Shown one piece after another: positions 21,980-37,063 of a stretch of DNA of 40,334 nt. Made by a program: the position numbers and the translations under genes. Position 1 is the first letter of the stretch; each line of letters opens with the position of its first letter. The notes below the pieces were generated by a model. That model was given only the letters and a program-made list of their open reading frames with translations, made no database searches and was not told the origin of the DNA. This DNA is from an uncultured bacterium (GTDB taxonomy: Bacteria > Hinthialibacterota > Hinthialibacteria > OLB16), in the NCBI GenBank assembly GCA_964481775.1, contig CAYZUX010000023.1, positions 1-40,334 on the forward strand, in the 5' to 3' direction.

Positions 21980-22165
21980 AGAATAATACAATACAATGTT
22001 ATGGTATGATTTTGATAATCACAAAGCTCTTAGGGAGAAACTACAATGATGTTGAAACAATGAATAGACCGCATTATAAAATCAATAAAATATATTGTGT
22101 TCATAAAATAATACTCGTGACTTATTGCCGGAACGTCAGAGATTTTCACTTGTTTTACTGGCCAA

Positions 22166-25433: not shown

Positions 25434-26369
25434 ATGAATTCGTCCGTCTCAAATGGCTCGTGTCTTGCCCGCGTACGAGCCTATTGTCCACGTGAAGGTG
25501 GTTCAACGCAAAGAATTGCGAGGCAAATTCTTGAACACCCACAGGATGTTCTTCCAATGTCGATTGTCCAAATTGCAGGGGTTTGTGAAACCAGCCCCTC
25601 AACAGTGACACGTTTCTGCAGGATTCTGGGTTACTCAGGGTTCAAGGAATTCCAGCTCGATCTGGCGACAACGCTTGCTAACTATAGTCCTGATGTTGAA
25701 GAAAGTTTCGACAAGTCCGATTCGCCAGGTAGCATTATCAGGCGTGTATTTGAGCGTAATAAGCAAAGTCTGGAGGATACCCTGTCCCTGCTTGATGAAA
25801 AAACGATGGACAGGGTGGCTATTGCCTTGACAAGAGCAAGACGGATTTATCTGCTTGGGATCGGTGGTTCCGGTCTGGTGGCAAGGGAAGCGGCCCAGCG
25901 CTTTATGAGTCTGGGTTTGACTGCAATCGCTGTCTTCGATCCCTATGATCAGGTGTTCGCAACAAGTAATGTCGGGCGAGAAGATGTCATTTTTGGTATC
26001 AGTCATACGGGGCGGACTCTGTCAGTTCTCGAGGGAATCCGTGAAGCACGAAGACATCATGCCCATGTCATTGTAGTCACCAACTACCCTGATTCTCCTT
26101 TGGCAAAGGAATCTCATGAACGCCTGATCACCTCTTATCGGGAACACCGTTTTAATGCCGCTGTATCCTCCTCGAGAATAGCGCAAATGTGCATTTTTGA
26201 CGCCCTCTATTTTATGGTCGGAAGTCGTACTTCCGAGGAGGCAAGAAGGCTTGCAAAATCAGCCGAAGAGAGGGTGCAACGGTTGTTGAGAAATCGATAT
26301 TCACGGACATCCGTTGCAACAAAAGACCGCTCTGTACCTTCAGAGGAAAAAATGATGAGTGATGAATGA
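25434..26369 (+). CDS. RpiR/MurR-family transcriptional regulator (N-terminal HTH_6 + C-terminal SIS sugar-phosphate-binding domain)
   Basis: The ORF track starts at 25410. The Met at 25434 has AAGGATAA 4 nt upstream. The HTH is …STQRIARQILEHPQDVLPMSIVQIAGVCETSPSTVTRFCRILGYSGFKEFQ. The SIS domain is …RRIYLLGIGGSGLVAREAAQRFMSLGL…VIFGISHTGRT…. Confidence 0.8.
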   Translation: MNSSVSNGSCLARVRAYCPREGGSTQRIARQILEHPQDVLPMSIVQIAGVCETSPSTVTRFCRILGYSGFKEFQLDLATTLANYSPDVEESFDKSDSPGSIIRRVFERNKQSLEDTLSLLDEKTMDRVAIALTRARRIYLLGIGGSGLVAREAAQRFMSLGLTAIAVFDPYDQVFATSNVGREDVIFGISHTGRTLSVLEGIREARRHHAHVIVVTNYPDSPLAKESHERLITSYREHRFNAAVSSSRIAQMCIFDALYFMVGSRTSEEARRLAKSAEERVQRLLRNRYSRTSVATKDRSVPSEEKMMSDE

Positions 26370-26472
26370 GGGTTATCAGGGAGGATAACAGGGACAAGAA
26401 AAAACCGCTTGGTTTTGATTATTAGTGGAGCCTGCTGGTCATCTCAATAAAATTACAGGAGGAATATCAAAG

Positions 26473-27822
26473 ATGTATACGCGTTACTATGATCCAGAAA
26501 TCTTCATCCAGATGCTGGATGGCATTGATCTGGATGATCATGTGGTTGCTTCATATTATCTGAAAGACCGGATAGAGGGACAGAAGTGGCTTGACCATTT
26601 TGCTCTTATCCAGGCCATGGGGCTTGAGGGTTCCACGGGAACATGGGAAAAAGTGGAGGAAGACACCGCTGATGTGCGAATTGCGATGTCCAGCAAGATG
26701 GTGGGATACCACGAGATTCCGGCCGAGGATCCTTACACGAAGTCAGCCGTGGTTCAGTTGGCATTTCCGATCCGGGCATGGGGTGATAACCTCCCGATGA
26801 TGTTACTTGCAATTGCTGGTAATTGCTTTGCCTATTCAAAAAATATCATGTTGACAGACCTCTTTATAGGAAAGAACCTGTTAAAAATGTTTAAGGGGCC
26901 GAAGTTTGGTGTTCAAGGTGTTCGTGAACTGACTGGTGTTAAAGACCGTCCACTCTCTCTTCACATCATCAAGCCGAAGATGGGGATGACACCGGAACAG
27001 ACCGCCAACCAGGTGGCACAAACAGCTGCTGGCGGAGCGGACATGTGTAAAGATGATGAGATGCTGGCCGATGCATACAATAATACTATGGAACAACGTC
27101 TTCCTCTGGTTATGGAAGCGATCAACCGTGCCGCTGATAAAACGGGCAAGAAGATGATTTACCTTTGCAGCATCACTGATGAAAGTCAGAAAATGATCGA
27201 TAAGGCGAAAAAAGCTATAGAGCTCGGGGCAAATGGACTTCTCGTGACCTATTCAGCCGGTCTTGCAGCCTTGCGGAAACTGACTTCTGATCCTGATATC
27301 ACAGTTCCGGTAATGCTCCATGCCTCTCATATGATCGCCATGATGAAACAAATTGCCTGGCCTGTGCTGGCGAAACTGTGTCGTCTGTGCGGGGCCGATC
27401 TCATGTTGACACCGACGATCTGGTCATCCATTCCGATGGTATCAATGGAGGAGGGAATTCGGACTTCTTTCATGCAGCTGGCTCCATGGGGACATATCAA
27501 ACCAACTTTCCCGATGCCATGTGCCGGTGTCTATCCTGGGCTGGCTCCAATCATTATCGGCGAGTATGGAACTGATATCGTAATCCCTGCGGGTGGCGGT
27601 ATGCTTGGTCATCCAGATGGTTACACAGCGGGTGCGAAAGCTTGGAGACAGGCAATCGATGCGGCACTGTCCAATGAGAACTTTATCGATTACGCCAAAA
27701 AACCAGAAAACAAGGAATTAAGACGCGCGATCGAGAAATGGGGCTATATTGAACGACCCAAATCACCTTGGTTGCGTGTGGCTCCTGAGTTTCATCCAAA
27801 AACGATGAAGTTTGATGACTGA
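26473..27822 (+). CDS. RuBisCO large-subunit homologue, RuBisCO-like protein (form IV-like; not predicted to be a carboxylase)
   Basis: The ORF track starts at 26425. The Met at 26473 (MYTRYYDP…) has an AGGAGGAA RBS. A by-eye alignment to form I RbcL gives [11 protein letters not shown] vs STGTWTTVWTD; GNCFAYS…[37 protein letters not shown] vs GNVFGF…[47 protein letters not shown] vs GGLDFTKDDE; and …[27 protein letters not shown] vs …[26 protein letters not shown]. Positions equivalent to H294/R295, H327, K334 and S379 appear substituted (LHASH, [16 protein letters not shown], PCAGV). Confidence 0.8.
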   Translation: [449 protein letters not shown]

Positions 27823-27893
27823 TGCCGCCTGCATCCTTATGGATAGTTGAGTGAAATGAGGATGATAACGTCTGGATGATGGGGAGCAAATTG

Positions 27894-29378
27894 ATGGATC
27901 GGAATTATTACCTTGCGATAGACCTGGGTGCCGAAAGTGGTCGCGCTGTAATAGGGTCGATTGATGAGGGAAAACTGATGGTTGAGGAAATCCATCGATT
28001 CCCGAATGCTCCCGTAACCATATGTGGAACATTGTACTGGGACATCTTGAATATCTATGCCAATATCATTGAATCCCTGGATCGGTACCAACAACGATTT
28101 GGGGATTCAGTGAATGGCATTGGCATCGACAGCTGGGCAGTTGACTTTGGCTTGATTGATCGATATGGGAACCTTCTTCAAAATCCAGTCTGTTATCGTG
28201 ACTCCCGGACAGAAGGGATGTTTGAAAGAGTTGAGAAATCACTGTCAAAGAGAGAGGTATTTGACATTACTGGGATAGGTCTTATACCGATCTATACTCT
28301 CTGTCAGTTGAAATCATTGCGCATTCACCAGCCGGAATTGTTGAAATCAGCTGAAAAGCTCCTTTTGATCCCGGATCTTCTGAATTATTTTCTGTGCGGT
28401 AGTGTCGGCTGCGAACAGACAAATGCTATCACCACACAGCTTTATGACCCGCGCCAGGGTACCTGGAGTCATAAGATTTTTGACCTGATGGATTTTCCGT
28501 ATTCCATAATGGCCGATATCAACGCTCCTGGTACCTATTTGGGGGAACTGAGAGATTCCATCAAAGTCCAAACAGGTCTACGAAATGCTCCGGTAGTTTC
28601 TGTTTGCTCACATGATACTGGTTCTGCAGTTGCTGCTGTTCCAGCAGCAGTGGAAAATTATGGTTTTATCAGTTCCGGAACATGGTCTGTTGTCGGAATG
28701 ATGACGGGTGAGTTGATAACCACTGACGAGGCATTTTCCGCCAATGTCTGCAACGAACTGACAGCGGAGGGATTATTCCTGTGCCGTAACATAATGGGTT
28801 TGTGGTTGTTACAGCAAGCTCGCGCTGCATGGAGACGCAAAGGCATATCATATAGTTATGACGATCTGGTTCATTTGGCAGGTGAGGCTCCCCGTTCAGG
28901 ACCTCTTGTAATGGTTGATGATCCGACGTTCCTTCATCCAACAGACATGGTGGAGGCAATTCGTGTGTTTTGCCAGAAGACAGGACAGAAATCGATTTCA
29001 TCCGATGCTGGCTTTGTCTGCTGTATACTTGAAAGTCTGGCATTGGCGTACCGTCAGGCGCTAAACCAGATTCATCGCATCACCGGTCGTAGAAGTGAAA
29101 TCCTCCACATCGTTGGAGGGGGTGCTCTAAACTCTGTTTTGTGTCAATATACTGCAAACGCCACGGGAATAACCGTTTTGGCAGGTCCTCAGGATGCGAC
29201 TGCAACAGGCAATATCCTGGTTCAGGCACTATCACGCGGTGATTTGAAATCAATCAAGGAAATCCATGAAGTTGTTCGATCCTCAAGTCGTTTGGTTCAA
29301 TATGAACCATGTGACAATAAATATTGGGAAGATCGAATTGCCTACTACAATAAAATAATCAAAACACCTGAAGATTGA
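27894..29378 (+). CDS. FGGY-family carbohydrate kinase, rhamnulokinase (RhaB)-like
   Basis: The ORF track starts at 27876. The Met at 27894 has a GGGAG RBS. The N-terminus MDRNYYLAIDLGAESGRAVIG…EIHRFPNAP…GTLYWDI and IDSWAVDFGLIDRYGNLL match the RhaB pattern (VAVDLGASSGRVM…EIHRFNN…WDVD; IDTWGVDF). The length (~494 aa) fits. Confidence 0.75.
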   Translation: MDRNYYLAIDLGAESGRAVIGSIDEGKLMVEEIHRFPNAPVTICGTLYWDILNIYANIIESLDRYQQRFGDSVNGIGIDSWAVDFGLIDRYGNLLQNPVCYRDSRTEGMFERVEKSLSKREVFDITGIGLIPIYTLCQLKSLRIHQPELLKSAEKLLLIPDLLNYFLCGSVGCEQTNAITTQLYDPRQGTWSHKIFDLMDFPYSIMADINAPGTYLGELRDSIKVQTGLRNAPVVSVCSHDTGSAVAAVPAAVENYGFISSGTWSVVGMMTGELITTDEAFSANVCNELTAEGLFLCRNIMGLWLLQQARAAWRRKGISYSYDDLVHLAGEAPRSGPLVMVDDPTFLHPTDMVEAIRVFCQKTGQKSISSDAGFVCCILESLALAYRQALNQIHRITGRRSEILHIVGGGALNSVLCQYTANATGITVLAGPQDATATGNILVQALSRGDLKSIKEIHEVVRSSSRLVQYEPCDNKYWEDRIAYYNKIIKTPED

Positions 29379-29409
29379 TTCTTAAAAGAATGATCAGGAG
29401 GAAAGAAAG

Positions 29410-30396
29410 GTGCTTGCTGGACATTCATTCGGAGCTTGTTTACCCACATTCGGGAGTTGCGCGGATCGCTACTGCCTTGGCGGTTATGGTGGTGGGGGGG
29501 AAACCATCAAGGAGATGATAGACCTTTCCCTGAAGGTTAAAGGAATAGATGGGCTTGAACTGGTTGGTAATTGGCATGTCAATGATAACAATATACGTGA
29601 AATTGGAGCCATGTTCAAAGACAGGAATCTCAAAATTCCGATGTTGGTTCCAGACCTTTGGACACAGGCTAAATGGGGCAAGGGTAGTCTTGCTGCACCC
29701 GACGCAGTTACCCGGCAAGCGGCAATTGATGAAGTCCGCAAGGTGATGGATTGGGCGGCAGAGTTGAATTGTCCTTATGTGGATGTTTGGCCGGGTCAGG
29801 ATGGTTATGATTATTGCTTCCAGACTGATCACCTTGCTGCTTGGGAATGGCTACATGATGGTCTGGCAGCCTGTGCTTCTCATAATGATAAGGTAAAAGT
29901 TCTGGTCGAATACAAACTTAAGGAGCCAAGGACACATATTATTGTCAACAGTGCCGCAAAAACTCTCCTGCTCCTGGAAGATCTTCCCAATGTTGGCTGT
30001 CTACTGGATATTGGACATTCACTTGCCGCGGGAGAAAACATCGCGGAAGCTGCTTCACTACTAGCCCGTTATGGGAAGCTGGATTACCTTCACCTCAATG
30101 ATAACTATCGGTCTTGGGATGATGACATGATGCTTGGCTCGGTTCATCTTGTCGAGACCCTCGAACTGGCTTATTGGTTGAAACGATTGAACTATAATGG
30201 TTGGCTCACTCTCGATATTTTCCCTTACCGGGAGGATGGTGTTCGTGCCGCAACCCAGTGTTACCGGTGGATGGAAGCTCTGTTTTCATGTATTGAGCGT
30301 GTCGGGATGGACGAAATTGGATCAGTCATTAAGACAGGCGATGGATGTTCGGCAGTTGAAATTGTTCGGCGAGCATTTGGCCTGGAAAAAGACTAA
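29410..30396 (+). CDS. Xylose-isomerase-like TIM-barrel sugar (phosphate) isomerase/epimerase
   Basis: GTG start at 29410 with a strong AGGAGGAAAGAAAG RBS. The motifs …CLLDIGHSLAAGENI… and …LDYLHLNDN… are typical of the AP-endonuclease-2/xylose-isomerase-like (beta/alpha)8 family, which includes ketose 3-epimerases, OtnI-type isomerases and L-rhamnose-isomerase relatives. Confidence 0.65.
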   Translation: MLAGHSFGACLPTFGSCADRYCLGGYGGGGETIKEMIDLSLKVKGIDGLELVGNWHVNDNNIREIGAMFKDRNLKIPMLVPDLWTQAKWGKGSLAAPDAVTRQAAIDEVRKVMDWAAELNCPYVDVWPGQDGYDYCFQTDHLAAWEWLHDGLAACASHNDKVKVLVEYKLKEPRTHIIVNSAAKTLLLLEDLPNVGCLLDIGHSLAAGENIAEAASLLARYGKLDYLHLNDNYRSWDDDMMLGSVHLVETLELAYWLKRLNYNGWLTLDIFPYREDGVRAATQCYRWMEALFSCIERVGMDEIGSVIKTGDGCSAVEIVRRAFGLEKD

Positions 30397-30470
30397 TCTC
30401 ATTGTCCAAGATTGATTTCAATAAAAATCTGATAATGGCTGAGATGGCTGATACTTTAAATGTGAATATT

Positions 30471-30499
30471 TTCTTCACATGGATTCCACGCGGTATAAT
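30471..30499 (+). promoter_or_regulatory. Candidate promoter with consensus -10 hexamer in the 183-bp gap upstream of the lipoyl/E1/BMC gene string
   Basis: TATAAT at 30494-30499 with a weak -35 (TTCTTC, or TTCACA at non-ideal spacing). This is a by-eye match only. Confidence 0.2.
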
Positions 30500-30579
30500 T
30501 TCATGATAAGAATAGATCCGAAACTTCATGACCGGGATAGGGTCAGTCGGTTTCTTTGTTCAAAGGATGGGAATAGTAC

Positions 30580-31053
30580 ATGGTAGTTGCAATCAAAGTA
30601 CCAGACATGGGAACAACTGTGGATACAGTTATTTTAACAACCTGGCTGGTCAAAGAAGGCGAACATATTTCTCGTGGAGATCCAATTGCGGAAATTCAGA
30701 CTGATAAAGCGAATGTACAGCTTGAATCCGTTGCAGAAGGGATTCTCTTGAAGTGTATTGTGGAGGAGAATACAGAGCTTTCGGTAGGCCAAATTCTTGC
30801 CTACATTGGTTCGGCTGGGGAAATTATCGATGATGCGGCAATACCGGATTCCTCCTGTAATCCTGTTAAAAATGAGCAGTTTACTACAAGTCCAGAATCC
30901 TCATCGATAATATCAGTTCATGAAAACCCAACTGGTGAAGCTGCTGGTGATTCAGGTAAGTCTAATGACGGGAAAAAACGGGTCAAGGGTTCAACTCCGG
31001 TTTCGAAGATGGTCCGTAACCTGGCCCGGAAACACCAATTGGATTTGAATTAA
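30580..31053 (+). CDS. Lipoyl-domain protein with linker and the N-terminal half of a peripheral-subunit-binding domain (E2-like, lacking any catalytic acyltransferase domain); reads in frame into E1-alpha across a TAA
   Basis: The lipoyl-lysine motif is IAEIQTDKANVQLES within MVVAIKVPDMGTTVDTVILTTWLVKEGEHISRGD…. A Pro/Ser/Ala-rich linker follows, then GSTPVSKMVRNLARKHQLDLN-stop. The PSBD consensus (…RKLA.[23 protein letters not shown]) continues directly after the stop as VRGTGKGGSITREDV in the same frame. Confidence 0.75.
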   Translation: MVVAIKVPDMGTTVDTVILTTWLVKEGEHISRGDPIAEIQTDKANVQLESVAEGILLKCIVEENTELSVGQILAYIGSAGEIIDDAAIPDSSCNPVKNEQFTTSPESSSIISVHENPTGEAAGDSGKSNDGKKRVKGSTPVSKMVRNLARKHQLDLN

Positions 31054-31098
31054 GTCCGGGGCACAGGGAAGGGCGGAAGCATTACTCGTGAGGATGTA

Positions 31099-32100
31099 AT
31101 GCGTTTGGTGAACTCCACATCACCTGTGACTCCCATACCTGATGAAAACGATCCTTCATTTCTACTTGATCTTTACCGGAAAATGCTTCTGATCCGAAGG
31201 TTTGAAGAGCGCGTCAAATACCTTTTCCTTGAAGGTATCATGCCGGGTACCATTCATCAGTATCAGGGTGAGGAGGCTGTGGCGGTAGGAGTATGTGCCA
31301 CACTTAACCGGGATGACATCATAACAAGCACGCACCGTCCGCATGGTCACGCAATAGCCAAGGGGATTCCCATCAATTCATTGCTCAATGAATTGTTCGG
31401 AAAGACAACGGGTTGTTGTCGTGGTAAGGGAGGTTCGATGCATGTGGGCGATCTGGAACTGGGCATGGTTCCTGCCATTGCCATTGTGGGTGGAAATGTC
31501 CCACTGGCAACAGGTTGTGCTCTTGCATTTAAGATGAGGGGAGAATCGAGGGTAGCGGTTTCCTTCATGGGCGACGGAGCCATTAATGAAGGTGCCTTTC
31601 ATGAGGGTGTGAACATGGGTGCTATCTGGTCACTTCCTGTAATCTACGTTATCGAAAATAACCTGTACTCAGCATCGACACCGATTGGGAGCACAGTTAA
31701 GTTGTCAAAACTCTCTGATCGGGCCTTAGGCTATGGAATCCCTGGTGTCACTATTGATGGAAATGATGTCATGGAGGTCTACCGTGCAAGCCGTGAAGCT
31801 GTGGACCGTGCTCGAAAGGGGAAAGGTCCTACGCTGATCGAAGCCATCACCTATCGAATAACTGGTCACTCACGACGCGATCCCTGTAATTACCAGCCGG
31901 AAGAAGAGCGCAATGAGGCGATAAAGAAAGAACCAATTGGGCGATTTGAAAAACACCTGATTGAAACTGGCCTTATCAACCGGGATCAACTGAACCAGAT
32001 TAGCAAGGAAATAGATTTAGAGATTGAAGAGGCTGTTCAGGAAGCCATAAATGGACCAGATCCAAAACCAGAAGACGCTTTACAAGATGTCTTTGTGTGA
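31099..32100 (+). CDS. TPP-dependent 2-oxoacid/acetoin dehydrogenase E1 component alpha subunit
   Basis: …LYRKMLLIRRFEERV…IHQYQGEEAVAVGVCATLNRDDIITSTHRPHGHAIAKG…. The TPP motif is GDGAINEGAFHEGVNMGAIWSLPVIYVIENNLY. It is in the same frame as the upstream lipoyl ORF, with a GAGGA RBS before the ATG at 31099. Confidence 0.85.
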   Translation: MRLVNSTSPVTPIPDENDPSFLLDLYRKMLLIRRFEERVKYLFLEGIMPGTIHQYQGEEAVAVGVCATLNRDDIITSTHRPHGHAIAKGIPINSLLNELFGKTTGCCRGKGGSMHVGDLELGMVPAIAIVGGNVPLATGCALAFKMRGESRVAVSFMGDGAINEGAFHEGVNMGAIWSLPVIYVIENNLYSASTPIGSTVKLSKLSDRALGYGIPGVTIDGNDVMEVYRASREAVDRARKGKGPTLIEAITYRITGHSRRDPCNYQPEEERNEAIKKEPIGRFEKHLIETGLINRDQLNQISKEIDLEIEEAVQEAINGPDPKPEDALQDVFV

Positions 32101-32115
32101 GAGAAGGAAAGAATT

Positions 32116-33132
32116 GTGTCAAAAAAATCGATTGCTGAAGCCTTGCGTGAAGGTTTGCGTGAAGAAATGTTACGCGATGAGAGGGTTTTCTGTATTGGTG
32201 AGGATATTGCCATCCCAGGCGGATGGGGAGGAGCCTTCACCGTTACCCTGGGTTTGGAAAGCGATTTTGCTGACCGGATGATTAATACACCCATATCAGA
32301 AAATGGTGCGTTTGGTGTGGCTTGTGGAGCAGCGATGATGGGGATGAGACCAATCGCCGATGTTCAATATGGGGATTTCCTGTTCTGCGCCATGGATCAG
32401 GTTGCCAACAACATTGCAAAATTACGATATATGTCTGGAGGCAAGCTCGAGGTCCCAATCGTCATGCGTGCACCTGTCGGAGCCACCGGACGCGGAGCAC
32501 AACACGCTCAGAATCTCGAATCTATCTTTCTCTCCATTCCCGGAATCAAAATAGTGTGTCCCGCGACTGCTTATGATGCCAAGGGCTTACTAAAAGCAGC
32601 TGTTCGTGATAATAATCCTGTTCTTATGTTTGAACATAAGTTACTTTATGGCTCAAAAGGGGCACGGGCTGAATCGGGCTCACTGGATGCATCCAGTGAA
32701 ATCCCGGATCATGATTATATTGTACCCATTGGCAAAGGTATTGTTCGACGGGAAGGCAGTGATGTGACCATTGTCGGGACCCTGTTGATGATGCATTACG
32801 CTTTGAACGCCGCGGAAGTACTTGCAGCTGAAGGAATAAGCGCGGAAGTTATCGATCCCAGATCCCTGAATCCTTTTGATTGGCCTATCCTGGAGAAATC
32901 GGTCAGGAAAACCACTCGGTTGGTGACCGTCGAGGAAGGTCCATGCTTTGGTGGAATTGGTGCGGAAATATCAGCAACTGTTTCCGAACGATTGGGGGAT
33001 TACCTGACTGCCCCGATTTCTCGTGTGGGTGCACCCAATATTCCCGTACCCTTTGCCCCCATCATGGAAAACTATTATCGTCCAGATGTAAATAAGATCA
33101 TTGAAACTGTCCGGCAAGTGTGTGATAATTGA
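32116..33132 (+). CDS. E1 component beta subunit (transketolase-like pyrimidine-binding and C-terminal domains)
   Basis: GTG start with a GAAGGAAAG RBS, 15 nt after the E1-alpha stop. Motifs include …VFCIGEDIAIPGGWGGAFTVTLGLESDFADRMINTPISENGAFGVACGAAMMGMRPIADVQYGDFL… and …HAQNLESIFLSIPGIKIVCPATAYDAKGLL…. Confidence 0.85.
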   Translation: MSKKSIAEALREGLREEMLRDERVFCIGEDIAIPGGWGGAFTVTLGLESDFADRMINTPISENGAFGVACGAAMMGMRPIADVQYGDFLFCAMDQVANNIAKLRYMSGGKLEVPIVMRAPVGATGRGAQHAQNLESIFLSIPGIKIVCPATAYDAKGLLKAAVRDNNPVLMFEHKLLYGSKGARAESGSLDASSEIPDHDYIVPIGKGIVRREGSDVTIVGTLLMMHYALNAAEVLAAEGISAEVIDPRSLNPFDWPILEKSVRKTTRLVTVEEGPCFGGIGAEISATVSERLGDYLTAPISRVGAPNIPVPFAPIMENYYRPDVNKIIETVRQVCDN

Positions 33133-33175
33133 TCAAATGCCAGATTTTTTAATATTATTCCGTTAGGATACTGAA

Positions 33176-33796
33176 ATGACTGAACTGCGTAGTTTTATCA
33201 TACTTGATAATCTTCAGGAACAGTTGGCCTCATTCATGGCATCGACTGTCCAGGGGTATATGCCAGTGGCAGGAATGGCTTCCTTGTTTGTGGAGGTAGC
33301 ACCGGGTATGGAGATTGTCAGATTGCTGGATCGAGCTGTAAAAGCAACCGGTGTCCGTCCCGCGATTCAGGTTGTCGAGAGAAACTTTGGTGCTTTAGAA
33401 GTTCATTCAGATTCCCAAGCCGATGTTCGCCAGGCAGGCCTGGCAATTCTGGAGGCACTGGGAATGACGGAGGAGGACAGGATGAAACCAAGAATCGCTT
33501 CGTCCACGGTCATCCGGAAGGTGGATCCCTATCATGCCTCATTAATTAACAAAAGTCGTTCAGGTTCTTTATTGCTTGCCGGTCAGACTTTGTTTATTCT
33601 CGAGACACAACCAGCCATGTATGCAGTGCTGGCGTCCAATGAAGCGGAAAAGGCCAGCAAAGTGACCCTGGTGGATATACGTCCATTTGGAAATTATGGA
33701 CGATTGTACCTGGGGGGGGATGAGGCTGATGTCGTGGTGGGAAGTCAGGCCGCGATAAACTCGTTAATCAATCTTTCTGGGAAAGAAACCAACTGA
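33176..33796 (+). CDS. BMC-T shell protein (tandem BMC-domain, probably permuted PduB/EutL-like)
   Basis: Two BMC-like halves. The second ends …[35 protein letters not shown], which matches the canonical BMC C-terminal pattern G.V..V.GDV.AV..A. Confidence 0.65.
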
Positions 33797-33810: not shown

Positions 33811-34116
33811 ATGGCGGATGCACTTGGGATGATCGAAACACAAGGATTTGCAGCGATGGTGGAGGCCTCGGATGCGATGGTCAAGGCTGCCAAGGTTGAG
33901 CTTGTGGGATATGAGAAGACAGGTGGAGGCTATGTTACAGCGATTATCAGGGGAGATGTGGCCGCTGTTAAAGCCGCCTGTGAGGCGGGAGAACGGGGTG
34001 CGCGGGGAGTGGGTCAAGTCATATCAATCCATATCATCCCACGACCCCATACGAATGTAGACCTGGTTCTTCCTTTAGGCCGCAAAGAGGAAGCCGCCAA
34101 AGAAGCCGGAAAGTAG
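33811..34116 (+). CDS. BMC-H shell protein (PduA/EutM-type hexamer)
   Basis: [64 protein letters not shown] is a textbook Pfam00936 single-domain sequence with a short charged C-terminal tail. Confidence 0.9.
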
Positions 34117-34123
34117 AATTTCC

Positions 34124-34420
34124 ATGCAGATTGGCAGAGTGATTGGAACTGTGGTATCCACCGCTAAAGAACCCATGTTGGAAGGCCGGAAGCTGCTGGT
34201 GGTTCGTTCCCTCGATCTGAATGCGAAGGCGACAACAGGTTATGTGGTGGCAGTTGATTCGGTGGATGCGGGGATTGGTGATGTGGTCCTTGTCGCTCAG
34301 GGAAGTTCAGCCCGTTTGACAGGTGCCACAAAGGACCGTCCATGCGATGCGGTGATAATCGGGATTGTGGATTCATGGGATGTTGGCGGCGTAACCAAAT
34401 ACAGGAAAAGTGAAGAATGA
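34124..34420 (+). CDS. BMC-P vertex protein (EutN/PduN/CcmL family)
   Basis: MQIGRVIGTVVSTAKEPMLEGRKLLVV…GYVVAVDSVDAGIGDVVLVAQGSSARL…AVIIGIVDSWDV follows the EutN/CcmL pattern. Its stop overlaps the AldDH start (ATGA at 34417-34420). Confidence 0.85.
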   Translation: MQIGRVIGTVVSTAKEPMLEGRKLLVVRSLDLNAKATTGYVVAVDSVDAGIGDVVLVAQGSSARLTGATKDRPCDAVIIGIVDSWDVGGVTKYRKSEE

Positions 34421-35793
34421 CCCAGCGACAGCCAGTGTCAAGCCAGTCCTTGTGTTCTCCCTCCGTCTCCAGTGAGGGACCATGTTTTCCCTGTGTCGAT
34501 GCAGCAGTCACACGTGCATGCACAGCTTTCGAGGCTATGTCTGGTATGAACCTCGATACTCGTATTCGTGTGGTGGCTGCCATGCGCCAGGCAGCCAGGA
34601 ATCATGTCAAGGAATTAGCTTCACTGGCGGTCGAGGAAACGGGGCTTGGAAGGGTTGAGGATAAGGTTCGAAAAAACCTGCTGGTCACTATCAAAACTCC
34701 CGGTCCGGAATTCCTGGAACCTGTCGCTCAAAGCGGCTCCCGTGGTTTGATGTTGATGGAACGGGCGCCTTATGGAGTGATAGCATCCATTATTCCCGTT
34801 ACCAATCCCACTACCACGGTAATCAACAATGGGATAGCCATGATCAGCGCAGGGAACGCAGTGGTTTTCAATGCTCATCCCGGGGCCAAACGATGTTCCA
34901 ACCGTTGCATAGAAATTCTTAACGAAGCGATTATGGGCGCAGGGGGTCCCCCTGATCTGTTGACGGCGATTCCAGATCCAACGATCGGGACAGCACAGGC
35001 GTTAATGCGCCATACGAAGATCGCTTTGCTGTGTGTCACGGGGGGACCTGGAGTTGTACGCGAAGCCATGAATTGTGGCAAGAAGGTGATCGCCGCGGGA
35101 GCAGGAAATCCTCCCGCGGTCGTCGATGAAACCGCTGACATAAGTAATGCGGCAAATTCCATTGTCGCTGGTGCTTCTTTGGATAACAACATCATCTGCA
35201 CGGACGAAAAGGTCGTGGTAGTTGTCGATTCCATCGCTGATGATCTGAAGCGTCATATGCTGGCCCTGAATTGCGTTGAAGTTTCCGGAATTGATTTGCA
35301 GCGAGTATGTCGCTCGATCTTCAAATCCATTGAGGGCCGTTTTGGAACAATAAATACGCAAATGGTGGGTAAGGATGCCAGTATGATTCTGTCCGGGGCA
35401 GGGATCAATTGCCCCGCAGAAACACGTTTGGCTCTTTGCGAGGTTGACCGGGATCACCCGCTCGCCTGGACTGAGCAACTGATGCCAATTCTTCCGATTG
35501 TCCGAGCCAAGGACGTGGATGAGGCCATTTCCCTGGCGGTTGCTTATGAAAATGGACGGCGCCATACAGCGACCATGCATTCCACGAACATAGAAAAGTT
35601 GAATAAGATGGCTCGGATAGCCAACTGTTCAATCTTTGTCATGAATGGACCCTCCTTTGCCGGCCTGGGAATGGGTGGCGAGGGATATGCCTCGTTTACA
35701 ATAGCCAGTCCGACTGGAGAAGGTCTGACAAGTCCGATCAGTTTTACACGTGAGCGCCGTTGTACTCTGGTCGACACGCTAAGAATCGTGTAG
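34417..35793 (+). CDS. CoA-acylating aldehyde dehydrogenase (PduP/EutE-like BMC signature enzyme) with ~40-aa N-terminal extension
   Basis: …ERAPYGVIASIIPVTNPTTTVINNGIAMISAGNAVVFNAHPGAKRC…; the catalytic Cys context is LDNNIICTDEKVVVV. The N-terminal MTQRQPVSSQSLCSPSVSSEGPCFPCVDAAVTRACTAFEAMSGM precedes the conserved core. Confidence 0.85.
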   Translation: MTQRQPVSSQSLCSPSVSSEGPCFPCVDAAVTRACTAFEAMSGMNLDTRIRVVAAMRQAARNHVKELASLAVEETGLGRVEDKVRKNLLVTIKTPGPEFLEPVAQSGSRGLMLMERAPYGVIASIIPVTNPTTTVINNGIAMISAGNAVVFNAHPGAKRCSNRCIEILNEAIMGAGGPPDLLTAIPDPTIGTAQALMRHTKIALLCVTGGPGVVREAMNCGKKVIAAGAGNPPAVVDETADISNAANSIVAGASLDNNIICTDEKVVVVVDSIADDLKRHMLALNCVEVSGIDLQRVCRSIFKSIEGRFGTINTQMVGKDASMILSGAGINCPAETRLALCEVDRDHPLAWTEQLMPILPIVRAKDVDEAISLAVAYENGRRHTATMHSTNIEKLNKMARIANCSIFVMNGPSFAGLGMGGEGYASFTIASPTGEGLTSPISFTRERRCTLVDTLRIV

Positions 35794-35923: not shown

Positions 35924-36481
35924 TTGGCTGTACTTGGGATGGTGGAGTTTAACAGAATTGCTACTGGCATTCATGCAACAGATGCCATGGTGAAGGCAGC
36001 TGAAGTTGAACTTATCGAATCCAGACCGATTACACCGGGCAAGTATATCTCGCTCGTGACTGGAGATGTGGCTTCTGTGAGTGCTTCCGTCAAAGCGGGT
36101 ATTGAAACAGCGGGTCTTGATGGAGTGATTGAGTCCTTTGTGCTCCCAAACCTTCATCCGCAAATTTTGCCCGTGATGCAAGGATACAACCCGGTTCCTG
36201 ATAAGGAGGCGGTCGGTATACTCGAAACAACTGGTGTTGCCGCTATTATTACAGCAACAGATGCAGCTCTAAAGGAATCTCCCGTGATTCTCGTTCGTCT
36301 TCATCTGGGTCTTCACATTGGAGGAAAGGGTTACGCAGTACTTGTGGGTGAGATTGCGGATATCGAGTCTTCAATCATGGCGGGAACCCGACAGGCTGGA
36401 AATCAACTTATCGATAAGAAAATTATTCCGAATCCTTATGAGGAGATATACCAATACCTCATGAAGAAACCTCACTGGTAA
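35924..36481 (+). CDS. Fused double BMC-domain shell protein (non-permuted tandem, BMC-T-like pseudohexamer)
   Basis: Domain 1 is MAVLGMVEFNRIATGIHATDAMVKAAEVELIESRPITPGKYISLVTGDVASVSASVKAGIE. Domain 2 is AVGILETTGVAAIITATDAALKESPVILVRLHLGLHIGGKGYAVLVGEIADIESSIMAG. Both are BMC-H-like. Confidence 0.75.
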   Translation: MAVLGMVEFNRIATGIHATDAMVKAAEVELIESRPITPGKYISLVTGDVASVSASVKAGIETAGLDGVIESFVLPNLHPQILPVMQGYNPVPDKEAVGILETTGVAAIITATDAALKESPVILVRLHLGLHIGGKGYAVLVGEIADIESSIMAGTRQAGNQLIDKKIIPNPYEEIYQYLMKKPHW

Positions 36482-36497: not shown

Positions 36498-36782
36498 ATG
36501 ATTCCTGCACGAGTTATTGGCAGAATGGTTCTCAATCAAACTCTGCCGGCATTTCAGGGAGTTCCCTTTCTTTTGGTGGAGCCCATTAATGAAAAAATGA
36601 TCACTTCGGGGGATTATATGGTTGTCTGTGACGCTATTGGTGCCAATCTGGGTGAAACGGTATTTCTCGCCCAGGGACGGGAGGCGACTTTCAATCTTCC
36701 CGACCCATTCAATCCGGCCGACATGACGATAATTGCCATAATTGACCAAATAACGACCGGTCAGGATTCTCAGAAGGAATAG
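36498..36782 (+). CDS. BMC-P vertex protein paralogue 2 (EutN/CcmL family)
   Basis: MIPARVIGRMVLNQTLPAFQGVPFLLVEP…GDYMVVCDAIGANLGETVFLAQG…MTIIAIIDQI. Confidence 0.8.
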   Translation: MIPARVIGRMVLNQTLPAFQGVPFLLVEPINEKMITSGDYMVVCDAIGANLGETVFLAQGREATFNLPDPFNPADMTIIAIIDQITTGQDSQKE

Positions 36783-36790: not shown

Positions 36791-37063
36791 GTGAAAATTG
36801 CACGTGTTGTGGCCCATGTTGTCTCAACCCAGAAGGTGATCAAGTATCACGGGATGAAAACATTGCTGGTAAAACCGTTACGTCTGGATGGAAGTGAGGA
36901 GGGCTCCACTTTTGTTGCCATAGACCGGGTACAGGCTGGGATCGGTGATATGGTATTATTAATGCAGGAGGGCAGCTCTGCTCGTACAATGTTTTATGAT
37001 GAACAAATGCCTGCTAGAAGTGTGATTGTCGGGATTATTGATCACCTGGAGATTAATGAATGA
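36791..37063 (+). CDS. BMC-P vertex protein paralogue 3 (EutN/CcmL family)
   Basis: MKIARVVAHVVSTQKVIKYHGMKTLLVKPL…STFVAIDRVQAGIGDMVLLMQEGSSAR…VIVGIIDHLEI. Its stop overlaps the aldolase start (ATGA at 37060-37063). Confidence 0.85.
   Translation: MKIARVVAHVVSTQKVIKYHGMKTLLVKPLRLDGSEEGSTFVAIDRVQAGIGDMVLLMQEGSSARTMFYDEQMPARSVIVGIIDHLEINE

What the first reader, a model, noticed from the sequence alone, without database searches (positions are those of the whole stretch)
25434..30396. RpiR-controlled trio (RuBisCO-like protein, rhamnulokinase-like FGGY kinase, TIM-barrel isomerase/epimerase) feeding a BMC: candidate new ketose-1-phosphate pathway
Four co-oriented genes with short gaps lie directly upstream of the BMC string: an HTH+SIS regulator, the RuBisCO-like protein, a RhaB-like kinase and a xylose-isomerase-fold enzyme. 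Together with the encapsulated class II aldolase this gives the logic isomerase, then 1-kinase, then (RuBisCO-like protein step), then aldol cleavage to DHAP plus aldehyde, then CoA-acylating aldehyde dehydrogenase inside the shell. The canonical L-fucose/L-rhamnose route needs no RuBisCO-like protein and no extra epimerase. Their presence suggests a non-standard substrate such as another 6-deoxy- or 5-deoxy sugar, a methylthio-sugar from the DHAP shunt, or a rare ketose. Alternatively the extra steps converge several sugars onto one aldolase substrate. A separate FucI-family isomerase lies 9 kb upstream on the other strand within the glycosidase block, so the sugar entry step may be split between two loci.
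Basis: inference. Interest (0 to 1): 0.8.

Follow-up and report, generated by a model that had tools for sequence, protein, structure and literature searches.

The report
Conserved RuBisCO-like sugar-cleavage cassette beside microcompartment
The four genes are real, but they form the front half of a widespread, uncharacterised sugar-breakdown cassette built around a RuBisCO-like enzyme and a thiamine/lipoyl-dependent cleavage enzyme, and this cassette only rarely sits next to a bacterial microcompartment.

Summary
RpiR (25434-26369), a RuBisCO-like protein (RLP, 26473-27822), a rhamnulokinase-like FGGY kinase (27894-29378) and a xylose-isomerase-fold two-metal isomerase (29410-30396) are co-oriented.

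The unit was cut too short. In 78 species-level genome loci labelled with more than 12 phyla, this RLP (51-87% identical) travels with the same regulator, kinase and isomerase.

Shell genes are adjacent in only 2 of the 78 (one separated by unrelated genes), plus one metagenome contig. Of about 25 relatives of this shell with readable upstream flank, one carries the cassette.

Neighbours elsewhere point to L-rhamnose or another methyl-ended sugar.

The RLP keeps the Mg/carbamate and first-phosphate sites but has an apolar pocket where RuBisCO binds its second phosphate. No cassette enzyme carries an encapsulation extension.

In the window, lipoyl-E3-binding-E1alpha is one gene split by a C>T stop at 31051.

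Best reading, by inference: an aldolase-independent, RLP plus TPP/lipoyl cleavage route for a deoxy-ketose 1-phosphate. Here it shares sugar activation with a PVM-type aldolase/aldehyde-dehydrogenase microcompartment. No paper describing it was found.

The parts
25434..26369 (+). RpiR-family regulator (HTH_6 + SIS sugar-phosphate sensor domain), first gene of the cassette
   Evidence: Pfam PF01418 at 55 bits and PF01380 at 92 bits. Called as 311 aa in sibling assemblies. An RpiR lies next to the RLP in 53 of the 85 sequences scanned.
26473..27822 (+). RuBisCO-like protein (form IV), a discrete, highly conserved clade. It is not a carboxylase.
   Evidence: PF00016 and PF02788. Nearest models are MtnW-type NF007095 at 275 bits (cutoff 409) and form III at 234 bits (cutoff 497). 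E60, W66, N123, K175, K177, K201, D203, E204 and G381 are invariant in 52 family members. R295 is A/G/P/N, H327 is L, K334 is I/L. 1148 homologues have E<=1e-20.
27894..29378 (+). FGGY sugar kinase, rhamnulokinase-like (probable ketose 1-kinase)
   Evidence: TIGR02627 at 416 bits (cutoff 528); fuculokinase at 124 bits. Kinases in other cassette loci are also rhamnulokinase-like at 345-373 bits. Adjacent to the RLP in 41 of the 85 sequences scanned.
29410..30396 (+). Xylose-isomerase-fold isomerase with two-metal ligands. Its nearest characterised relative is D-apiose isomerase.
   Evidence: PF01261. 37% identical over its full length to PDB 3KTC / Pectobacterium atrosepticum protein P0273, which UniRef names D-apiose isomerase. 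Xylose-isomerase ligand equivalents are E181, K183, E217>D, H220, D245>H, D255, D257 and D287. 59-78% identical across cassette loci.
30580..32100 (+). One gene: lipoyl domain + E3-binding domain + TPP-dependent E1 alpha subunit. In this assembly it is interrupted by an in-frame TAA at 31051-31053. There is no E2 catalytic domain.
   Evidence: PF00364 and PF00676. The reading frame continues through the stop. Sibling assemblies L132 and L133 are 99.97% identical, read CAA at this codon, and give a 506-aa product with PF00364+PF02817+PF00676. The same fusion occurs in L002, L005 and L067. TIGR03182 scores 351 bits, below the 394 cutoff.
32116..33132 (+). TPP-dependent E1 beta subunit
   Evidence: PF02779 and PF02780. 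NF006667 at 340 bits; weaker similarity to DXP synthase (78 bits) and transketolase (70 bits). Adjacent to the RLP in 54 of the 85 sequences scanned.
33176..33796 (+). BMC-T shell protein (CsoS1D-like)
   Evidence: PF00936; PF27545 CsoS1D_N in the precomputed annotation. 45 metagenome relatives at 49-84% identity.
33811..34116 (+). BMC-H shell protein
   Evidence: PF00936 at 102 bits.
34124..34420 (+). BMC-P vertex protein 1
   Evidence: PF03319 at 103 bits.
34417..35793 (+). CoA-acylating aldehyde dehydrogenase (EutE/PduP type)
   Evidence: NF011927 at 610 bits, above the 403 cutoff. Its C-terminus RRCTLVDxFRIV is the conserved end of the family, not an extension.
35924..36481 (+). BMC-T shell protein (tandem BMC domains)
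   Evidence: PF00936, two stretches, 135 bits.
36498..36782 (+). BMC-P vertex protein 2
   Evidence: PF03319 at 73 bits.
36791..37063 (+). BMC-P vertex protein 3
   Evidence: PF03319 at 91 bits.
37060..37824 (+). Class II aldolase (FucA/RhaD superfamily) with a C-terminal encapsulation-peptide-like helix
   Evidence: PF00596 at 148 bits. No NCBIfam equivalog cutoff is reached. The C-terminal amphipathic helix LDNIIEDTLRIL after a linker is conserved in relatives.
16409..17797 (-). FucI-family sugar isomerase, a probable entry-step isomerase of the same system
   Evidence: PF02952 at 60 bits. Weak match to sulfoquinovose isomerase and L-fucose isomerase models. Orthologues lie beside or inside the cassette in L004, L012, L014, L082 and L083.

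Best explanation
The region is the front half of a conserved catabolic cassette. Its members are RpiR, an RLP of a distinct clade, a RhaB-like ketose 1-kinase, an apiose-isomerase-like two-metal isomerase, and a TPP-dependent E1alpha/beta that carries (or sits beside) its own lipoyl acceptor.

Shown:
- the gene content;
- its conservation in 78 genomes;
- its usual independence from BMCs;
- its occurrence beside L-rhamnose genes;
- an RLP active site that keeps the Mg/carbamate centre and first-phosphate site but has an apolar pocket at the second-phosphate site.

Inferred mechanism:
1. A methyl-ended sugar is isomerised to its ketose. The most likely sugar is L-rhamnose or another 6-deoxy-L-hexose; a 5-deoxypentose is possible.
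2. The kinase phosphorylates the ketose at C1.
3. The RLP, through an enediolate, moves the carbonyl away from the phosphate end. This is what the Rhodospirillum rubrum RLP does with methylthioribulose 1-phosphate.
4. The resulting acyloin is cut by the E1, in effect a reverse DXP-synthase or acetoin-dehydrogenase step. The cut releases a triose or tetrose phosphate and loads an acetyl or lactyl group on the lipoyl arm, for transfer to CoA.

A non-oxidative transketolase transfer would be pointless for a CH3-CO- donor. That would explain why an E1/lipoyl system stands where the related D-apiose cluster has a split transketolase.

In this lineage the cassette has been joined to a PVM-type BMC. 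The BMC's encapsulated aldolase and AldDH most likely take the same kinase product (ketose 1-phosphate > DHAP + lactaldehyde or acetaldehyde > acyl-CoA). The window would then hold two parallel cleavage routes under one regulator, not one linear route through the RLP into the shell.
For: - Census: around 80 RLP copies in the 85 sequences scanned, there are E1a 56, E1b 54, RpiR 53, TIM 53, FGGY 41, full E2 38, short lipoyl 16, BMC 3.
- Rhamnose context: rhaM + RhaT + FucI-like (L083), GH78 (L082), GH106 (L084, L032). A RhaEW-type SDR domain scores 400 bits. All kinases are rhamnulokinase-like.
- RLP residues: E60, W66, N123, K175, K177, K201, D203, E204 are invariant. R295, H327 and K334 are replaced by A/G/P/N, L and I/L, as in MtnW.
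- The isomerase is 37% identical to D-apiose isomerase. In Pectobacterium and Streptomyces that gene sits in a TIM + FGGY + split-transketolase cluster.
- An Arthrobacter plasmid has fused E1alpha-beta + an 85-aa lipoyl protein + FGGY + an aldolase.
- E1alpha keeps the GDG...NN TPP motif. Its nearest plasmid relatives (44-50%) are mostly generically named TPP-dependent E1 alpha subunits; two older annotations call them acetoin dehydrogenase E1 alpha and one pdhA.
- No cargo-type extensions on cassette enzymes. The aldolase has one.
- The BMC family usually lacks the cassette.
- Cassette-then-BMC order is conserved in L001 and L096. An aldolase or BMC lies next to RpiR-RLP in a different order in the spirochaetes L034 and L040.
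Against: - No enzyme was assayed. The substrate and the RLP reaction are inferred from residues, neighbours and precedent.
- Strictly rhamnose-specific markers are seen in only 7-9 loci.
- The isomerase's nearest characterised relative acts on D-apiose. Apiosidase-like domains occur in 3 loci.
- Several loci (L022, L033, L055, L072, L082) have RLP + TIM but no E1 within 10 kb, and carry a URO-D-family gene instead.
- The window and several other loci lack an E2 catalytic domain, so how the acyl group leaves the lipoyl arm is unexplained.
- About 10-12 loci also encode an LsrF-equivalog, an RPE-like epimerase and an SDR. Their place in the scheme is only guessed.
- All loci are MAGs, so some taxonomic labels may be binning errors.
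Confidence: 0.4

Rival explanations
1. The isomerase, kinase and RLP (for example as an epimerase or carbonyl-shifting isomerase) convert a non-standard deoxy-ketose 1-phosphate into the substrate of the encapsulated class II aldolase. The AldDH then makes acyl-CoA inside the shell.
For: All genes from 25434 to 37824 are co-oriented with gaps of at most 183 nt. No + strand terminator-like site lies between genes. The same cassette-then-BMC order occurs in L001 and L096 despite 45-87% protein identity. An encapsulation-peptide-bearing aldolase lies directly upstream of RpiR-RLP in L034, and a whole BMC lies nearby in L040. Aldolase-like partners (an LsrF-family class I aldolase fold plus a RhaW-like SDR) occur in 10-12 other loci.
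Against: Most cassette loci show no aldolase of either class within 10 kb. This BMC family normally has no cassette upstream. The E1alpha/beta and lipoyl partners are more faithful to the RLP than any aldolase, and this model gives them no role. The RLP has no encapsulation extension.
Confidence: 0.2
2. A pathway for a branched or carboxylated deoxy-sugar of the pectin RG-II type, such as L-aceric acid (3-C-carboxy-5-deoxy-L-xylose) or a D-apiose relative. An apiose-isomerase-like enzyme makes the ketose. The kinase adds the 1-phosphate. The RLP decarboxylates the resulting beta-keto acid, as the apiose-pathway RLP OiaC does, giving a 5-deoxy-pentulose 1-phosphate. That product is split to DHAP plus acetaldehyde (aldolase/AldDH BMC), or to DHAP plus acetyl-CoA (SDR plus LsrF).
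For: The isomerase's nearest characterised relative is D-apiose isomerase. Apiosidase-like PF13204 plus DUF5060 occur in 3 loci, with GH78 and GH106 rhamnosidases nearby. The RLP matches the OiaX model at E=1e-43. The LsrF-equivalog scores 498 bits against a cutoff of 297, and its cognate substrate is exactly the C4-oxidised 5-deoxy-pentulose 1-phosphate (chemistry from established knowledge of LsrF). RuBisCO's E60, N123 and K177 are retained.
Against: The OiaX score of 150 bits is far below its 700 cutoff and below the MtnW-type score of 275 bits. There is no DUF1537 kinase. K334, which holds the carboxylate in RuBisCO, is replaced by I/L. E1alpha/beta has no obvious job. Aceric acid is rare compared with the breadth of the cassette. 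The primary paper on apiose pathways could not be read.
Confidence: 0.12
3. Two unrelated modules that are merely neighbours. The RLP cassette and the aldolase/AldDH BMC act on different substrates and were juxtaposed by rearrangement within a polysaccharide-utilisation island.
For: Each module usually occurs without the other. In L040 they are separated by a PfkB kinase, a response regulator and an MscS channel, and the BMC has its own DeoR regulator. L092 shows this BMC family scattered among unrelated genes.
Against: The 43-nt gap and shared strand in the window. Conserved order in three loci (window, L001, L096). A second, differently ordered association in spirochaetes (L034, L040). The window BMC has no kinase, isomerase or regulator of its own other than those of the cassette.
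Confidence: 0.13
4. A salvage or disposal route for S-adenosylmethionine by-products (5-deoxyribose or methylthioribose). This would be a variant of the methionine-salvage, DHAP-shunt or MTA-isoprenoid-shunt pathways, with the RLP acting as MtnW-type enolase or as methylthioribulose-1-P isomerase.
For: The nearest RLP models and structures are MtnW enolases. The apolar tail pocket resembles MtnW. The chemistry of each step has its closest precedents on C5 substrates: R. rubrum RLP, DXP synthase, LsrF, ribulose-phosphate epimerase (established knowledge). Many hosts are probably anaerobes rich in radical-SAM enzymes (inference from the taxonomic labels).
Against: The catalytic Lys of MtnW (K98, at the position of RuBisCO N123) is Asn in all 52 members. 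Scores are below both MtnW cutoffs. No MtnK, MtnA, MtnB, MtnX, MtnD, MtnN or MtnP families appear among the commonest neighbour families. The neighbours are glycosidases, sugar transporters and rhamnose genes.
Confidence: 0.08

Closest known systems
RLP clades IV-YkrW (MtnW, 2,3-diketo-5-methylthiopentyl-1-phosphate enolase) and IV-DeepYkr (Rhodospirillum rubrum methylthioribulose-1-P 1,3-isomerase)
   Same: RuBisCO large-subunit fold. Carbamylated Lys plus Asp/Glu Mg site. K175 retained. Second-phosphate site and loop-6 Lys replaced by apolar residues, implying a monophosphate substrate with an apolar tail. Best PDB match is 2OEK at 207 bits.
   Different: Retains RuBisCO's N123 where MtnW has its catalytic Lys. 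Retains E60/T65/W66 and K177. Below both MtnW cutoffs. No methionine-salvage neighbours; the partners are a RhaB-like kinase, an XI-fold isomerase and E1alpha/beta-lipoyl. No R. rubrum reference sequence was available to test against.
D-apiose transketolase pathway cluster (D-apiose isomerase, apulose kinase, split apulose-4-phosphate transketolase). Pathway names are recalled from Carter et al. 2018, which could not be read here. The isomerase name comes from UniRef and JGI.
   Same: The same triad logic: a 3KTC-family TIM-barrel isomerase + an FGGY kinase + a two-subunit TPP enzyme under a sugar-phosphate-sensing regulator. The isomerase is 37% identical.
   Different: The kinase is RhaB-like rather than GlpK-like, at 22% identity. 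The TPP enzyme is a PDH/acetoin-type E1alpha/beta with a lipoyl acceptor, not a transketolase. An RLP is added. The regulator is RpiR rather than SorC.
Canonical phosphorylated L-rhamnose / L-fucose pathway (RhaA/RhaI or FucI, RhaB/FucK, RhaD/FucA, and the bifunctional RhaEW)
   Same: Rhamnulokinase-like kinase. FucI-family isomerase. rhaM, RhaT, GH78 and GH106 neighbours in some loci. A RhaW-type SDR domain in about 10 loci. A class II aldolase in the window.
   Different: No RhaA. The isomerase is not a RhaI orthologue (58 bits against a 531 cutoff). Most loci have no aldolase. RLP and E1/lipoyl have no counterpart in the canonical pathway.
PVM-type bacterial microcompartment (Planctomycetes/Verrucomicrobia; fucose/rhamnose; Erbilgin 2014, Sutter 2021)
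   Same: Class II aldolase signature enzyme with a C-terminal encapsulation peptide. Acylating AldDH. A triplet of BMC-P plus BMC-H (PMC8217296 main text and Supplementary Data 2).
   Different: Two BMC-T proteins are present. No PTAC, acetate kinase or lactaldehyde reductase in the window. It is fused behind an RLP/E1 cassette. The catalog mentions RuBisCO only for carboxysomes and lists no E1 family (PF00676) in any BMC locus type.
Acetoin dehydrogenase (AcoABC) and pyruvate dehydrogenase E1/E2 systems; DXP synthase
   Same: Heterotetramer-type E1alpha/beta with a GDG...NN TPP motif. Lipoyl acceptor and E3-binding domain. Full E2 in 38 loci.
   Different: E1alpha falls below the PDH equivalog cutoff (351 against 394 bits). 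In this lineage the lipoyl and E3-binding domains are fused to E1alpha and no E2 core is present. No E3 gene in the cluster. The genomic role is sugar catabolism next to an RLP.
AI-2 processing LsrK/LsrG/LsrF
   Same: An FGGY kinase, then an isomerase acting on a phosphorylated keto-sugar, then a C-C cleavage that yields acyl-CoA plus DHAP. A true LsrF-equivalog (498 bits) accompanies the cassette in about 12 loci.
   Different: There is no LsrG or LsrK orthologue. The LsrF-like gene is absent from the window. The substrate is not AI-2, to judge from the polysaccharide context.

Membership tests
Bona fide RuBisCO (form I-III carboxylase) | Complete set of catalytic and second-phosphate residues, including R295, H327 and loop-6 K334 | tested here: not met
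   R295>A, H327>L, K334>I in the window, and A/G/P/N, L, I/L across 52 family members. Form III model at 234 bits against a 497 cutoff.
RuBisCO-like protein (form IV) superfamily | RuBisCO large-subunit N- and C-terminal domains with the K201/D203/E204 metal site but an incomplete carboxylase residue set | tested here: met
   PF02788 plus PF00016. K175, K177, K201, D203 and E204 are invariant.
MtnW / YkrW DK-MTP-1-P enolase | Score above the equivalog cutoff, and the catalytic Lys at the position of RuBisCO N123 | tested here: not met
   NF007095 at 275 bits (cutoff 409); TIGR03332 at 227 bits (cutoff 514). The position is Asn in all 52 members, where G. kaustophilus MtnW aligns 'GKL'.
MtnW / YkrW DK-MTP-1-P enolase | Methionine-salvage gene neighbourhood (mtnK, mtnA, mtnB, mtnX, mtnD) | tested here: not met
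   None appear among the commonest neighbour families of 340 flanking ORFs, nor in the Pfam-annotated loci.
R. rubrum-type RLP (methylthioribulose-1-P 1,3-isomerase) | Sequence membership of the DeepYkr clade and isomerase activity | not tested
   No reference sequence or structure of that clade was available in the tools. The functional analogy is inference.
Apiose-pathway RLPs (OiaC/OiaX) | Score above the NF042437 cutoff, and a DUF1537 kinase neighbour | tested here: not met
   150 bits against a 700 cutoff. The kinases are FGGY, not DUF1537.
Rhamnulokinase RhaB (equivalog) | TIGR02627 / NF007925 score above the cutoff | tested here: not met
   416 bits against 528, and 375 against 639. It is the best-matching FGGY subfamily by far, so 'RhaB-like' holds but orthology is unproven.
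D-apiose isomerase (3KTC family) | Close sequence relationship, and clustering with apulose kinase and split transketolase | tested here: inconclusive
   37% identity over the full length, E=7e-68. The partners differ: a RhaB-like kinase and E1alpha/beta instead of a GlpK-like kinase and transketolase.
Xylose-isomerase-type two-metal aldose-ketose isomerase | Metal ligands E181, E217, H220, D245, D255, D257, D287 and K183 | tested here: met
   Alignment to Thermus xylose isomerase 1BXB gives E, K, D (for E217), H, H (for D245), D, D, D.
2-oxo-acid / acetoin dehydrogenase complex | E1alpha/beta with a TPP motif plus a lipoyl-bearing E2 with a catalytic acyltransferase domain plus E3 | tested here: not met
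   E1alpha/beta and the lipoyl + E3-binding domains are present. There is no 2-oxoacid_dh catalytic domain and no E3 gene in the window. 38 other loci do have a full E2.
PVM-type / aldolase-signature metabolosome | BMC-H, a BMC-P triplet, acylating AldDH, and a class II aldolase with a C-terminal encapsulation peptide | tested here: met
   Compared with the descriptions in PMC8217296, main text and Supplementary Data 2.
PVM-type / aldolase-signature metabolosome | RLP, kinase, isomerase or E1 as encapsulated cargo (terminal encapsulation peptide) | tested here: not met
   No N- or C-terminal extension relative to orthologues from loci without shell genes nearby.

The most novel reading that the evidence does not exclude
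The RLP and the lipoyl-tethered E1alpha/beta together form a previously unknown, aldehyde-free way of splitting deoxy-sugar phosphates. The RLP 'walks' the carbonyl of a ketose 1-phosphate toward the methyl end. A 2-oxo-acid-dehydrogenase-type E1 then cuts the sugar chain itself, in effect a reverse DXP-synthase step coupled to lipoyl oxidation, giving acyl-CoA (or acyl-lipoyl) plus glyceraldehyde-3-P or a tetrose-4-P. This would be a new RLP reaction in central sugar catabolism, and the first sugar-phosphate-cleaving member of the PDH/acetoin-dehydrogenase family. It would be widespread in uncultured PVC, Acidobacteriota, Spirochaetota, Chloroflexota and candidate phyla, and interchangeable with aldolase + AldDH microcompartments.
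Probability: 0.3. Interest if true: 0.85.

Novelty: new variant of a known kind. Interest (0 to 1): 0.7.

Why it matters
Only a handful of RLP reactions are known: enolase, isomerase, decarboxylase or transcarboxylase, and oxygenase (2023 review PMC10176493). Each new one has revealed a new pathway.

This clade is unusually conserved, at a median of 67% identity across labelled phyla. Its fixed partner set makes its function directly testable in vitro with four or five proteins.

If the E1/lipoyl enzyme really cuts a sugar phosphate, three things follow:
- It extends the chemistry of the 2-oxo-acid dehydrogenase family.
- It explains how many uncultured polysaccharide degraders use rhamnose-type sugars without RhaD.
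- It shows that cells can choose between an aldehyde-free route and an aldehyde-producing route that needs a microcompartment.

For BMC biology, the result corrects a tempting over-reading. The RLP is not a new kind of BMC cargo.

Tried and rejected
1. RLP as a true carboxylase or a carboxysome-like BMC. Rejected on active-site residues.
2. RLP as an MtnW orthologue. Rejected on cutoffs, N123 and context.
3. A shared C-terminal 'DTLRI' motif on AldDH and aldolase as a common encapsulation peptide. Withdrawn: the AldDH end is the conserved core terminus of the family. Only the aldolase has an extension.
4. Shared operator-like k-mers among intergenic regions, as evidence of a regulon. Only trivial A/T-rich or Shine-Dalgarno-like matches turned up.
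5. The promoter/terminator scan gave counts no higher than shuffles. It serves only as absence of evidence for a break.
6. I recalled an 'HO' BMC type as Hydrogenedentes/Omnitrophica. The catalog shows it is the Haliangium type, so it is irrelevant.
7. Ten literature searches combined RLP with microcompartment, acetoin dehydrogenase, rhamnulokinase, rhamnose, LsrF, E1/lipoyl/FGGY and Hydrogenedentes. None found a description of this cassette. The primary apiose paper could not be opened.
8. Context of the closest BMC relative on a 3.25-Mb contig (L092). The shell genes are scattered among unrelated genes, which says nothing about the substrate.
9. The Pantoea plasmid homologue of the isomerase has no informative neighbours.
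10. Distinguishing a 2-oxo-acid-specific from an acyloin-specific E1 by sequence. No reliable signature is known to me, and the plasmid relatives carry mostly generic names.

Full report
**1. What is in the window**

From 25.4 to 37.8 kb, fifteen ORFs as read in this assembly (fourteen genes, since two ORFs are one split gene; see section 5) lie on the + strand. Pfam and NCBIfam identify them as follows:

- an RpiR regulator (25434-26369);
- an RLP (26473-27822);
- an FGGY kinase (27894-29378), whose best model by far is rhamnulokinase at 416 bits, below the 528-bit equivalog cutoff;
- a PF01261 xylose-isomerase-fold protein (29410-30396);
- a lipoyl-domain ORF (30580-31053);
- E1alpha (31099-32100);
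- E1beta (32116-33132);
- then BMC-T, BMC-H, BMC-P, an acylating AldDH (610 bits to NF011927), BMC-T, BMC-P, BMC-P and a class II aldolase.

Gaps range from overlaps to 183 nt. A consensus scan finds no + strand terminator-like site between genes, although such scans do not beat shuffled controls here.

**2. The RLP**

It is not a carboxylase. Alignment to Thermococcus form III RuBisCO and to Geobacillus MtnW, and a 52-member family alignment, give this picture:

- E60, W66, N123, K175, K177, K201, D203, E204 and G381 are invariant.
- The second-phosphate and loop-6 residues are replaced: R295 by A/G/P/N, H327 by L, K334 by I/L.
- The C-terminal domain thus resembles MtnW, implying a monophosphate substrate with an apolar tail.
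- The N-terminal domain keeps RuBisCO's residues. In particular, Asn sits where MtnW has its catalytic Lys.

Scores are below every NCBIfam equivalog cutoff: MtnW-type 275 against 409, form III 234 against 497, OiaX 150 against 700.

The family is tight. 1148 homologues have E<=1e-20, and the top 120 are 69-100% identical and mostly 447-449 aa long. In a library clustered at 50% identity, the family collapses to essentially one representative. The next full-length relatives are at 46, 41, 40 and 39% identity.

**3. The conserved unit is larger than the finding and is usually BMC-free**

A scan of one genome per species returned 78 loci. All are MAGs. Their labels span Planctomycetota, Verrucomicrobiota, Spirochaetota, Acidobacteriota, Armatimonadota, Omnitrophota, Chloroflexota, Hydrogenedentota, Sumerlaeota, Actinomycetota and others. 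Some labels may reflect binning errors.

tblastn with the window's proteins was run over 84 fetched loci plus the window, 85 sequences in all. These are the 78 genome loci, three short fetches of the window's own sibling contigs (L079-L081) and three Pfam-annotated loci (L082-L084; L084 is the same locus as L028). Hits were:

| Gene | Sequences with a hit |
|---|---|
| RLP | 80 |
| E1alpha | 56 |
| E1beta | 54 |
| RpiR | 53 |
| TIM isomerase | 53 |
| FGGY kinase | 41 |
| Full-length E2 | 38 |
| Short lipoyl protein | 16 |
| Class II aldolase-like | 5 |
| BMC-H + AldDH | 3 (window, L001, L040) |

In L040 the BMC and RpiR-RLP are separated by a PfkB kinase, a response regulator and an MscS channel.

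The reverse test agrees. The first shell gene has 45 metagenome relatives, about 25 of them with at least 1.2 kb of upstream flank. Only L096 has the cassette upstream.

The cassette and the BMC are therefore separate modules. They are fused in a narrow lineage (window, L001 from a Hydrogenedentota MAG, and L096). There is a second, differently ordered association in spirochaetes: L040, and L034, where an encapsulation-peptide-bearing aldolase directly precedes RpiR-RLP.

**4. No sign that cassette enzymes are cargo**

Aligned with orthologues from loci without shell genes nearby, the window's RLP, kinase, isomerase, E1alpha and E1beta have no extra N- or C-terminal segments. Only the aldolase carries a linker plus an amphipathic C-terminal helix, which is conserved in relatives. 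My earlier idea that AldDH shares this motif was wrong. Its C-terminus is the conserved family end.

**5. The 'lipoyl protein' and E1alpha are one gene**

The lipoyl ORF stops at TAA 31051-31053, inside an E3-binding (PSBD) motif. The next 15 codons complete that motif in the same frame and run into the E1alpha ATG.

Two independent assemblies of the same organism are 99.97% identical. They read CAA there and were called as a 506-aa product with PF00364 + PF02817 + PF00676. The same fusion exists in L002, L005 and L067.

This lineage therefore has a lipoyl- and E3-binding-tethered E1alpha and no E2 catalytic core. The stop in the window is a strain variant or an assembly error.

**6. What sugar?**

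Three loci with precomputed Pfam annotation put the cassette in these contexts:

- L082, next to GH78 alpha-L-rhamnosidase;
- L083, next to rhaM, RhaT and a FucI-family isomerase;
- L084, next to GH106.

Across all loci the markers are rhaM 4, RhaT 2, GH106 3 and FucI-like 6. Every kinase tested is rhamnulokinase-like.

About 10-12 loci add a triad of three genes:

- an LsrF-equivalog (498 bits, cutoff 297);
- an RPE-like epimerase;
- an SDR that matches the C-terminal dehydrogenase domain of bifunctional rhamnulose-1-P aldolase/dehydrogenases (400 bits).

A Pfam census of 340 other flanking ORFs shows URO-D/MtaA-like proteins as the commonest extra. They appear in 14 ORFs in that census and about 15 loci by tblastn. 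The census also found apiosidase-like domains in 3 ORFs.

The context therefore favours L-rhamnose or another methyl-ended sugar released from polysaccharides. It does not prove it.

**7. The isomerase and the TPP enzyme have an instructive relative**

The isomerase keeps xylose-isomerase metal ligands. It is 37% identical to PDB 3KTC, the Pectobacterium atrosepticum protein that UniRef names D-apiose isomerase.

That gene sits in an ABC transporter - split transketolase - FGGY - isomerase - SorC cluster. A Streptomyces plasmid has the same cluster among pectin-degrading enzymes. From memory of Carter et al. 2018, which I could not open, this is the D-apiose transketolase pathway.

The cassette has the same triad logic: isomerase, FGGY kinase and a two-subunit TPP enzyme. 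It differs in three ways. The kinase is RhaB-like (22% identical to the Streptomyces kinase). The TPP enzyme is E1alpha/beta with a lipoyl acceptor instead of a transketolase. An RLP is added.

An Arthrobacter plasmid carries class II aldolase - fused E1alpha-beta - 85-aa lipoyl protein - GlpK-like FGGY. E2-less E1/lipoyl sets in sugar clusters are therefore not unique to this cassette.

**8. Mechanism (inference)**

A RhaB-like kinase would place the phosphate at C1, next to the C2 carbonyl. A TPP enzyme cannot usefully remove a phosphorylated C1-C2 unit.

The RLP has an enediolate-forming centre and an apolar distal pocket. It is well suited to shift the carbonyl toward the methyl end, as the R. 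rubrum RLP converts 5-methylthioribulose-1-P to 1-methylthio-xylulose-5-P (established knowledge; Imker 2008, cited).

The product would be an acyloin with one of two ends:

- CH3-CO-CHOH-, for a 5-deoxypentose, or for a 6-deoxyhexose after one further shift;
- CH3-CHOH-CO-CHOH-, for a 6-deoxyhexose after the RLP's shift alone.

E1 could cleave such an acyloin in a reverse DXP-synthase or acetoin-dehydrogenase manner. The cut would release glyceraldehyde-3-P or a tetrose-4-P and load acetyl or lactyl on the lipoyl arm.

This explains why an oxidative E1/lipoyl enzyme replaces a transketolase for a deoxy donor. It also explains why most loci need no aldolase.

In the window, the encapsulated aldolase and AldDH would be a parallel outlet for the same ketose 1-phosphate. 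I put this at about 0.4.

Weak points:

- several loci lack E1 (L022, L033, L055, L072, L082);
- in loci that lack an E2 core, the route by which the acyl group leaves the lipoyl arm is unknown;
- URO-D and the LsrF triad have no assigned roles;
- the isomerase's nearest characterised relative acts on a branched sugar.

**9. Rivals**

- A branched or carboxylated RG-II-type sugar with the RLP as an OiaC-like decarboxylase: 0.12.
- Mere neighbourhood of two unrelated modules: 0.13.
- Salvage of S-adenosylmethionine by-products: 0.08.

Evidence for and against each is given in the structured fields.

**10. Novelty**

Ten full-text searches found no description of an RLP linked to rhamnose, E1/lipoyl, LsrF or a metabolosome. 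The BMC catalog mentions RuBisCO only for carboxysomes. It lists no E1 family in any locus type. A 2023 review lists only enolase, isomerase, decarboxylase and oxygenase RLPs.

I rate this as a new variant of a known kind: an RLP-dependent sugar-phosphate pathway. The RLP clade is probably new in function and has an unprecedented partner enzyme. Interest is 0.7.

Noticed in passing
window 31051-31053 (within 30580-32100): An in-frame TAA splits a lipoyl + E3-binding + E1alpha fusion gene. Two sibling assemblies (99.97% identical) read CAA (Gln) and encode a 506-aa protein. A second difference lies at 31007 (A in the window, T in the siblings). A GAGGA motif and an ATG follow the stop, so E1alpha could still be made.
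   Followed up: yes
L006, L011, L015, L028/L084, L030, L046, L070, L082, L083 (e.g. L083:6330-9946): A recurring triad sits next to the cassette: an LsrF-equivalog (3-hydroxy-5-phosphonooxypentane-2,4-dione thiolase model, 498 bits), an RPE-like epimerase, and a roughly 370-aa SDR matching the dehydrogenase half of bifunctional rhamnulose-1-P aldolase/dehydrogenases. It is absent from the window. It may be a CoA-dependent, aldehyde-free counterpart of aldolase + AldDH.
   Followed up: partly
e.g. L082:11361-12482, L083:2291-3394, L033, L055, L072; not in the window: URO-D/MtaA-like proteins (PF01208) are the commonest extra neighbour of the cassette. They often lie right after the isomerase and are present in the loci that lack E1alpha/beta. 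B12-binding domain proteins occur in 3 flanking ORFs. Their role is unknown.
   Followed up: partly
L130 (Arthrobacter plasmid NZ_CP084551.1, 1-4642): A cultured-organism cluster: class II fructose-bisphosphate aldolase - fused E1alpha-beta (694 aa) - 85-aa lipoyl protein - GlpK-like FGGY kinase - sugar regulator - ABC transporter. This is another E2-less E1/lipoyl set embedded in sugar catabolism, and a possible experimental handle.
   Followed up: partly
L004, L007, L015, L018, L021 (e.g. L015:13606-17377): A class III aminotransferase recurs inside or beside the cassette in these five loci. In L015 and L021 it is followed by three roughly 260-aa ORFs. Six Amidohydro_2 (PF04909) matches occurred in the same scan batch, but I did not check that they are these ORFs.
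   Followed up: no
window 5363-8674, 10716-14090, 14170-16437, 22898-24589 (- strand): Four large ORFs (1103, 1124, 755 and 563 aa) have no Pfam match. They lie among GH63/MGH1-like, beta-helix and SSF-transporter genes and may be unclassified carbohydrate-active enzymes. L001 has similar unannotated large ORFs upstream of its cassette.
   Followed up: no
window 16000-22000: GC content falls from about 0.53 at the left end to 0.38 at 18-20 kb, then rises to 0.45-0.50 over the cassette and BMC. GC skew switches sign near 24 kb, where gene orientation flips.
   Followed up: no
window 34417-35793: The AldDH has about 17 N-terminal residues ahead of the family profile (MTQRQPVSSQSLCSPSV). They do not look like an amphipathic encapsulation helix, and its C-terminus is the family core. 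How it is targeted to the shell is unclear.
   Followed up: partly
L034:1686-2424: The encapsulation-peptide-bearing class II aldolase directly upstream of RpiR-RLP in a Spirochaetia MAG is split over two overlapping frames. This is probably a frameshift or assembly error. No shell genes are on that 7.7-kb contig.
   Followed up: partly
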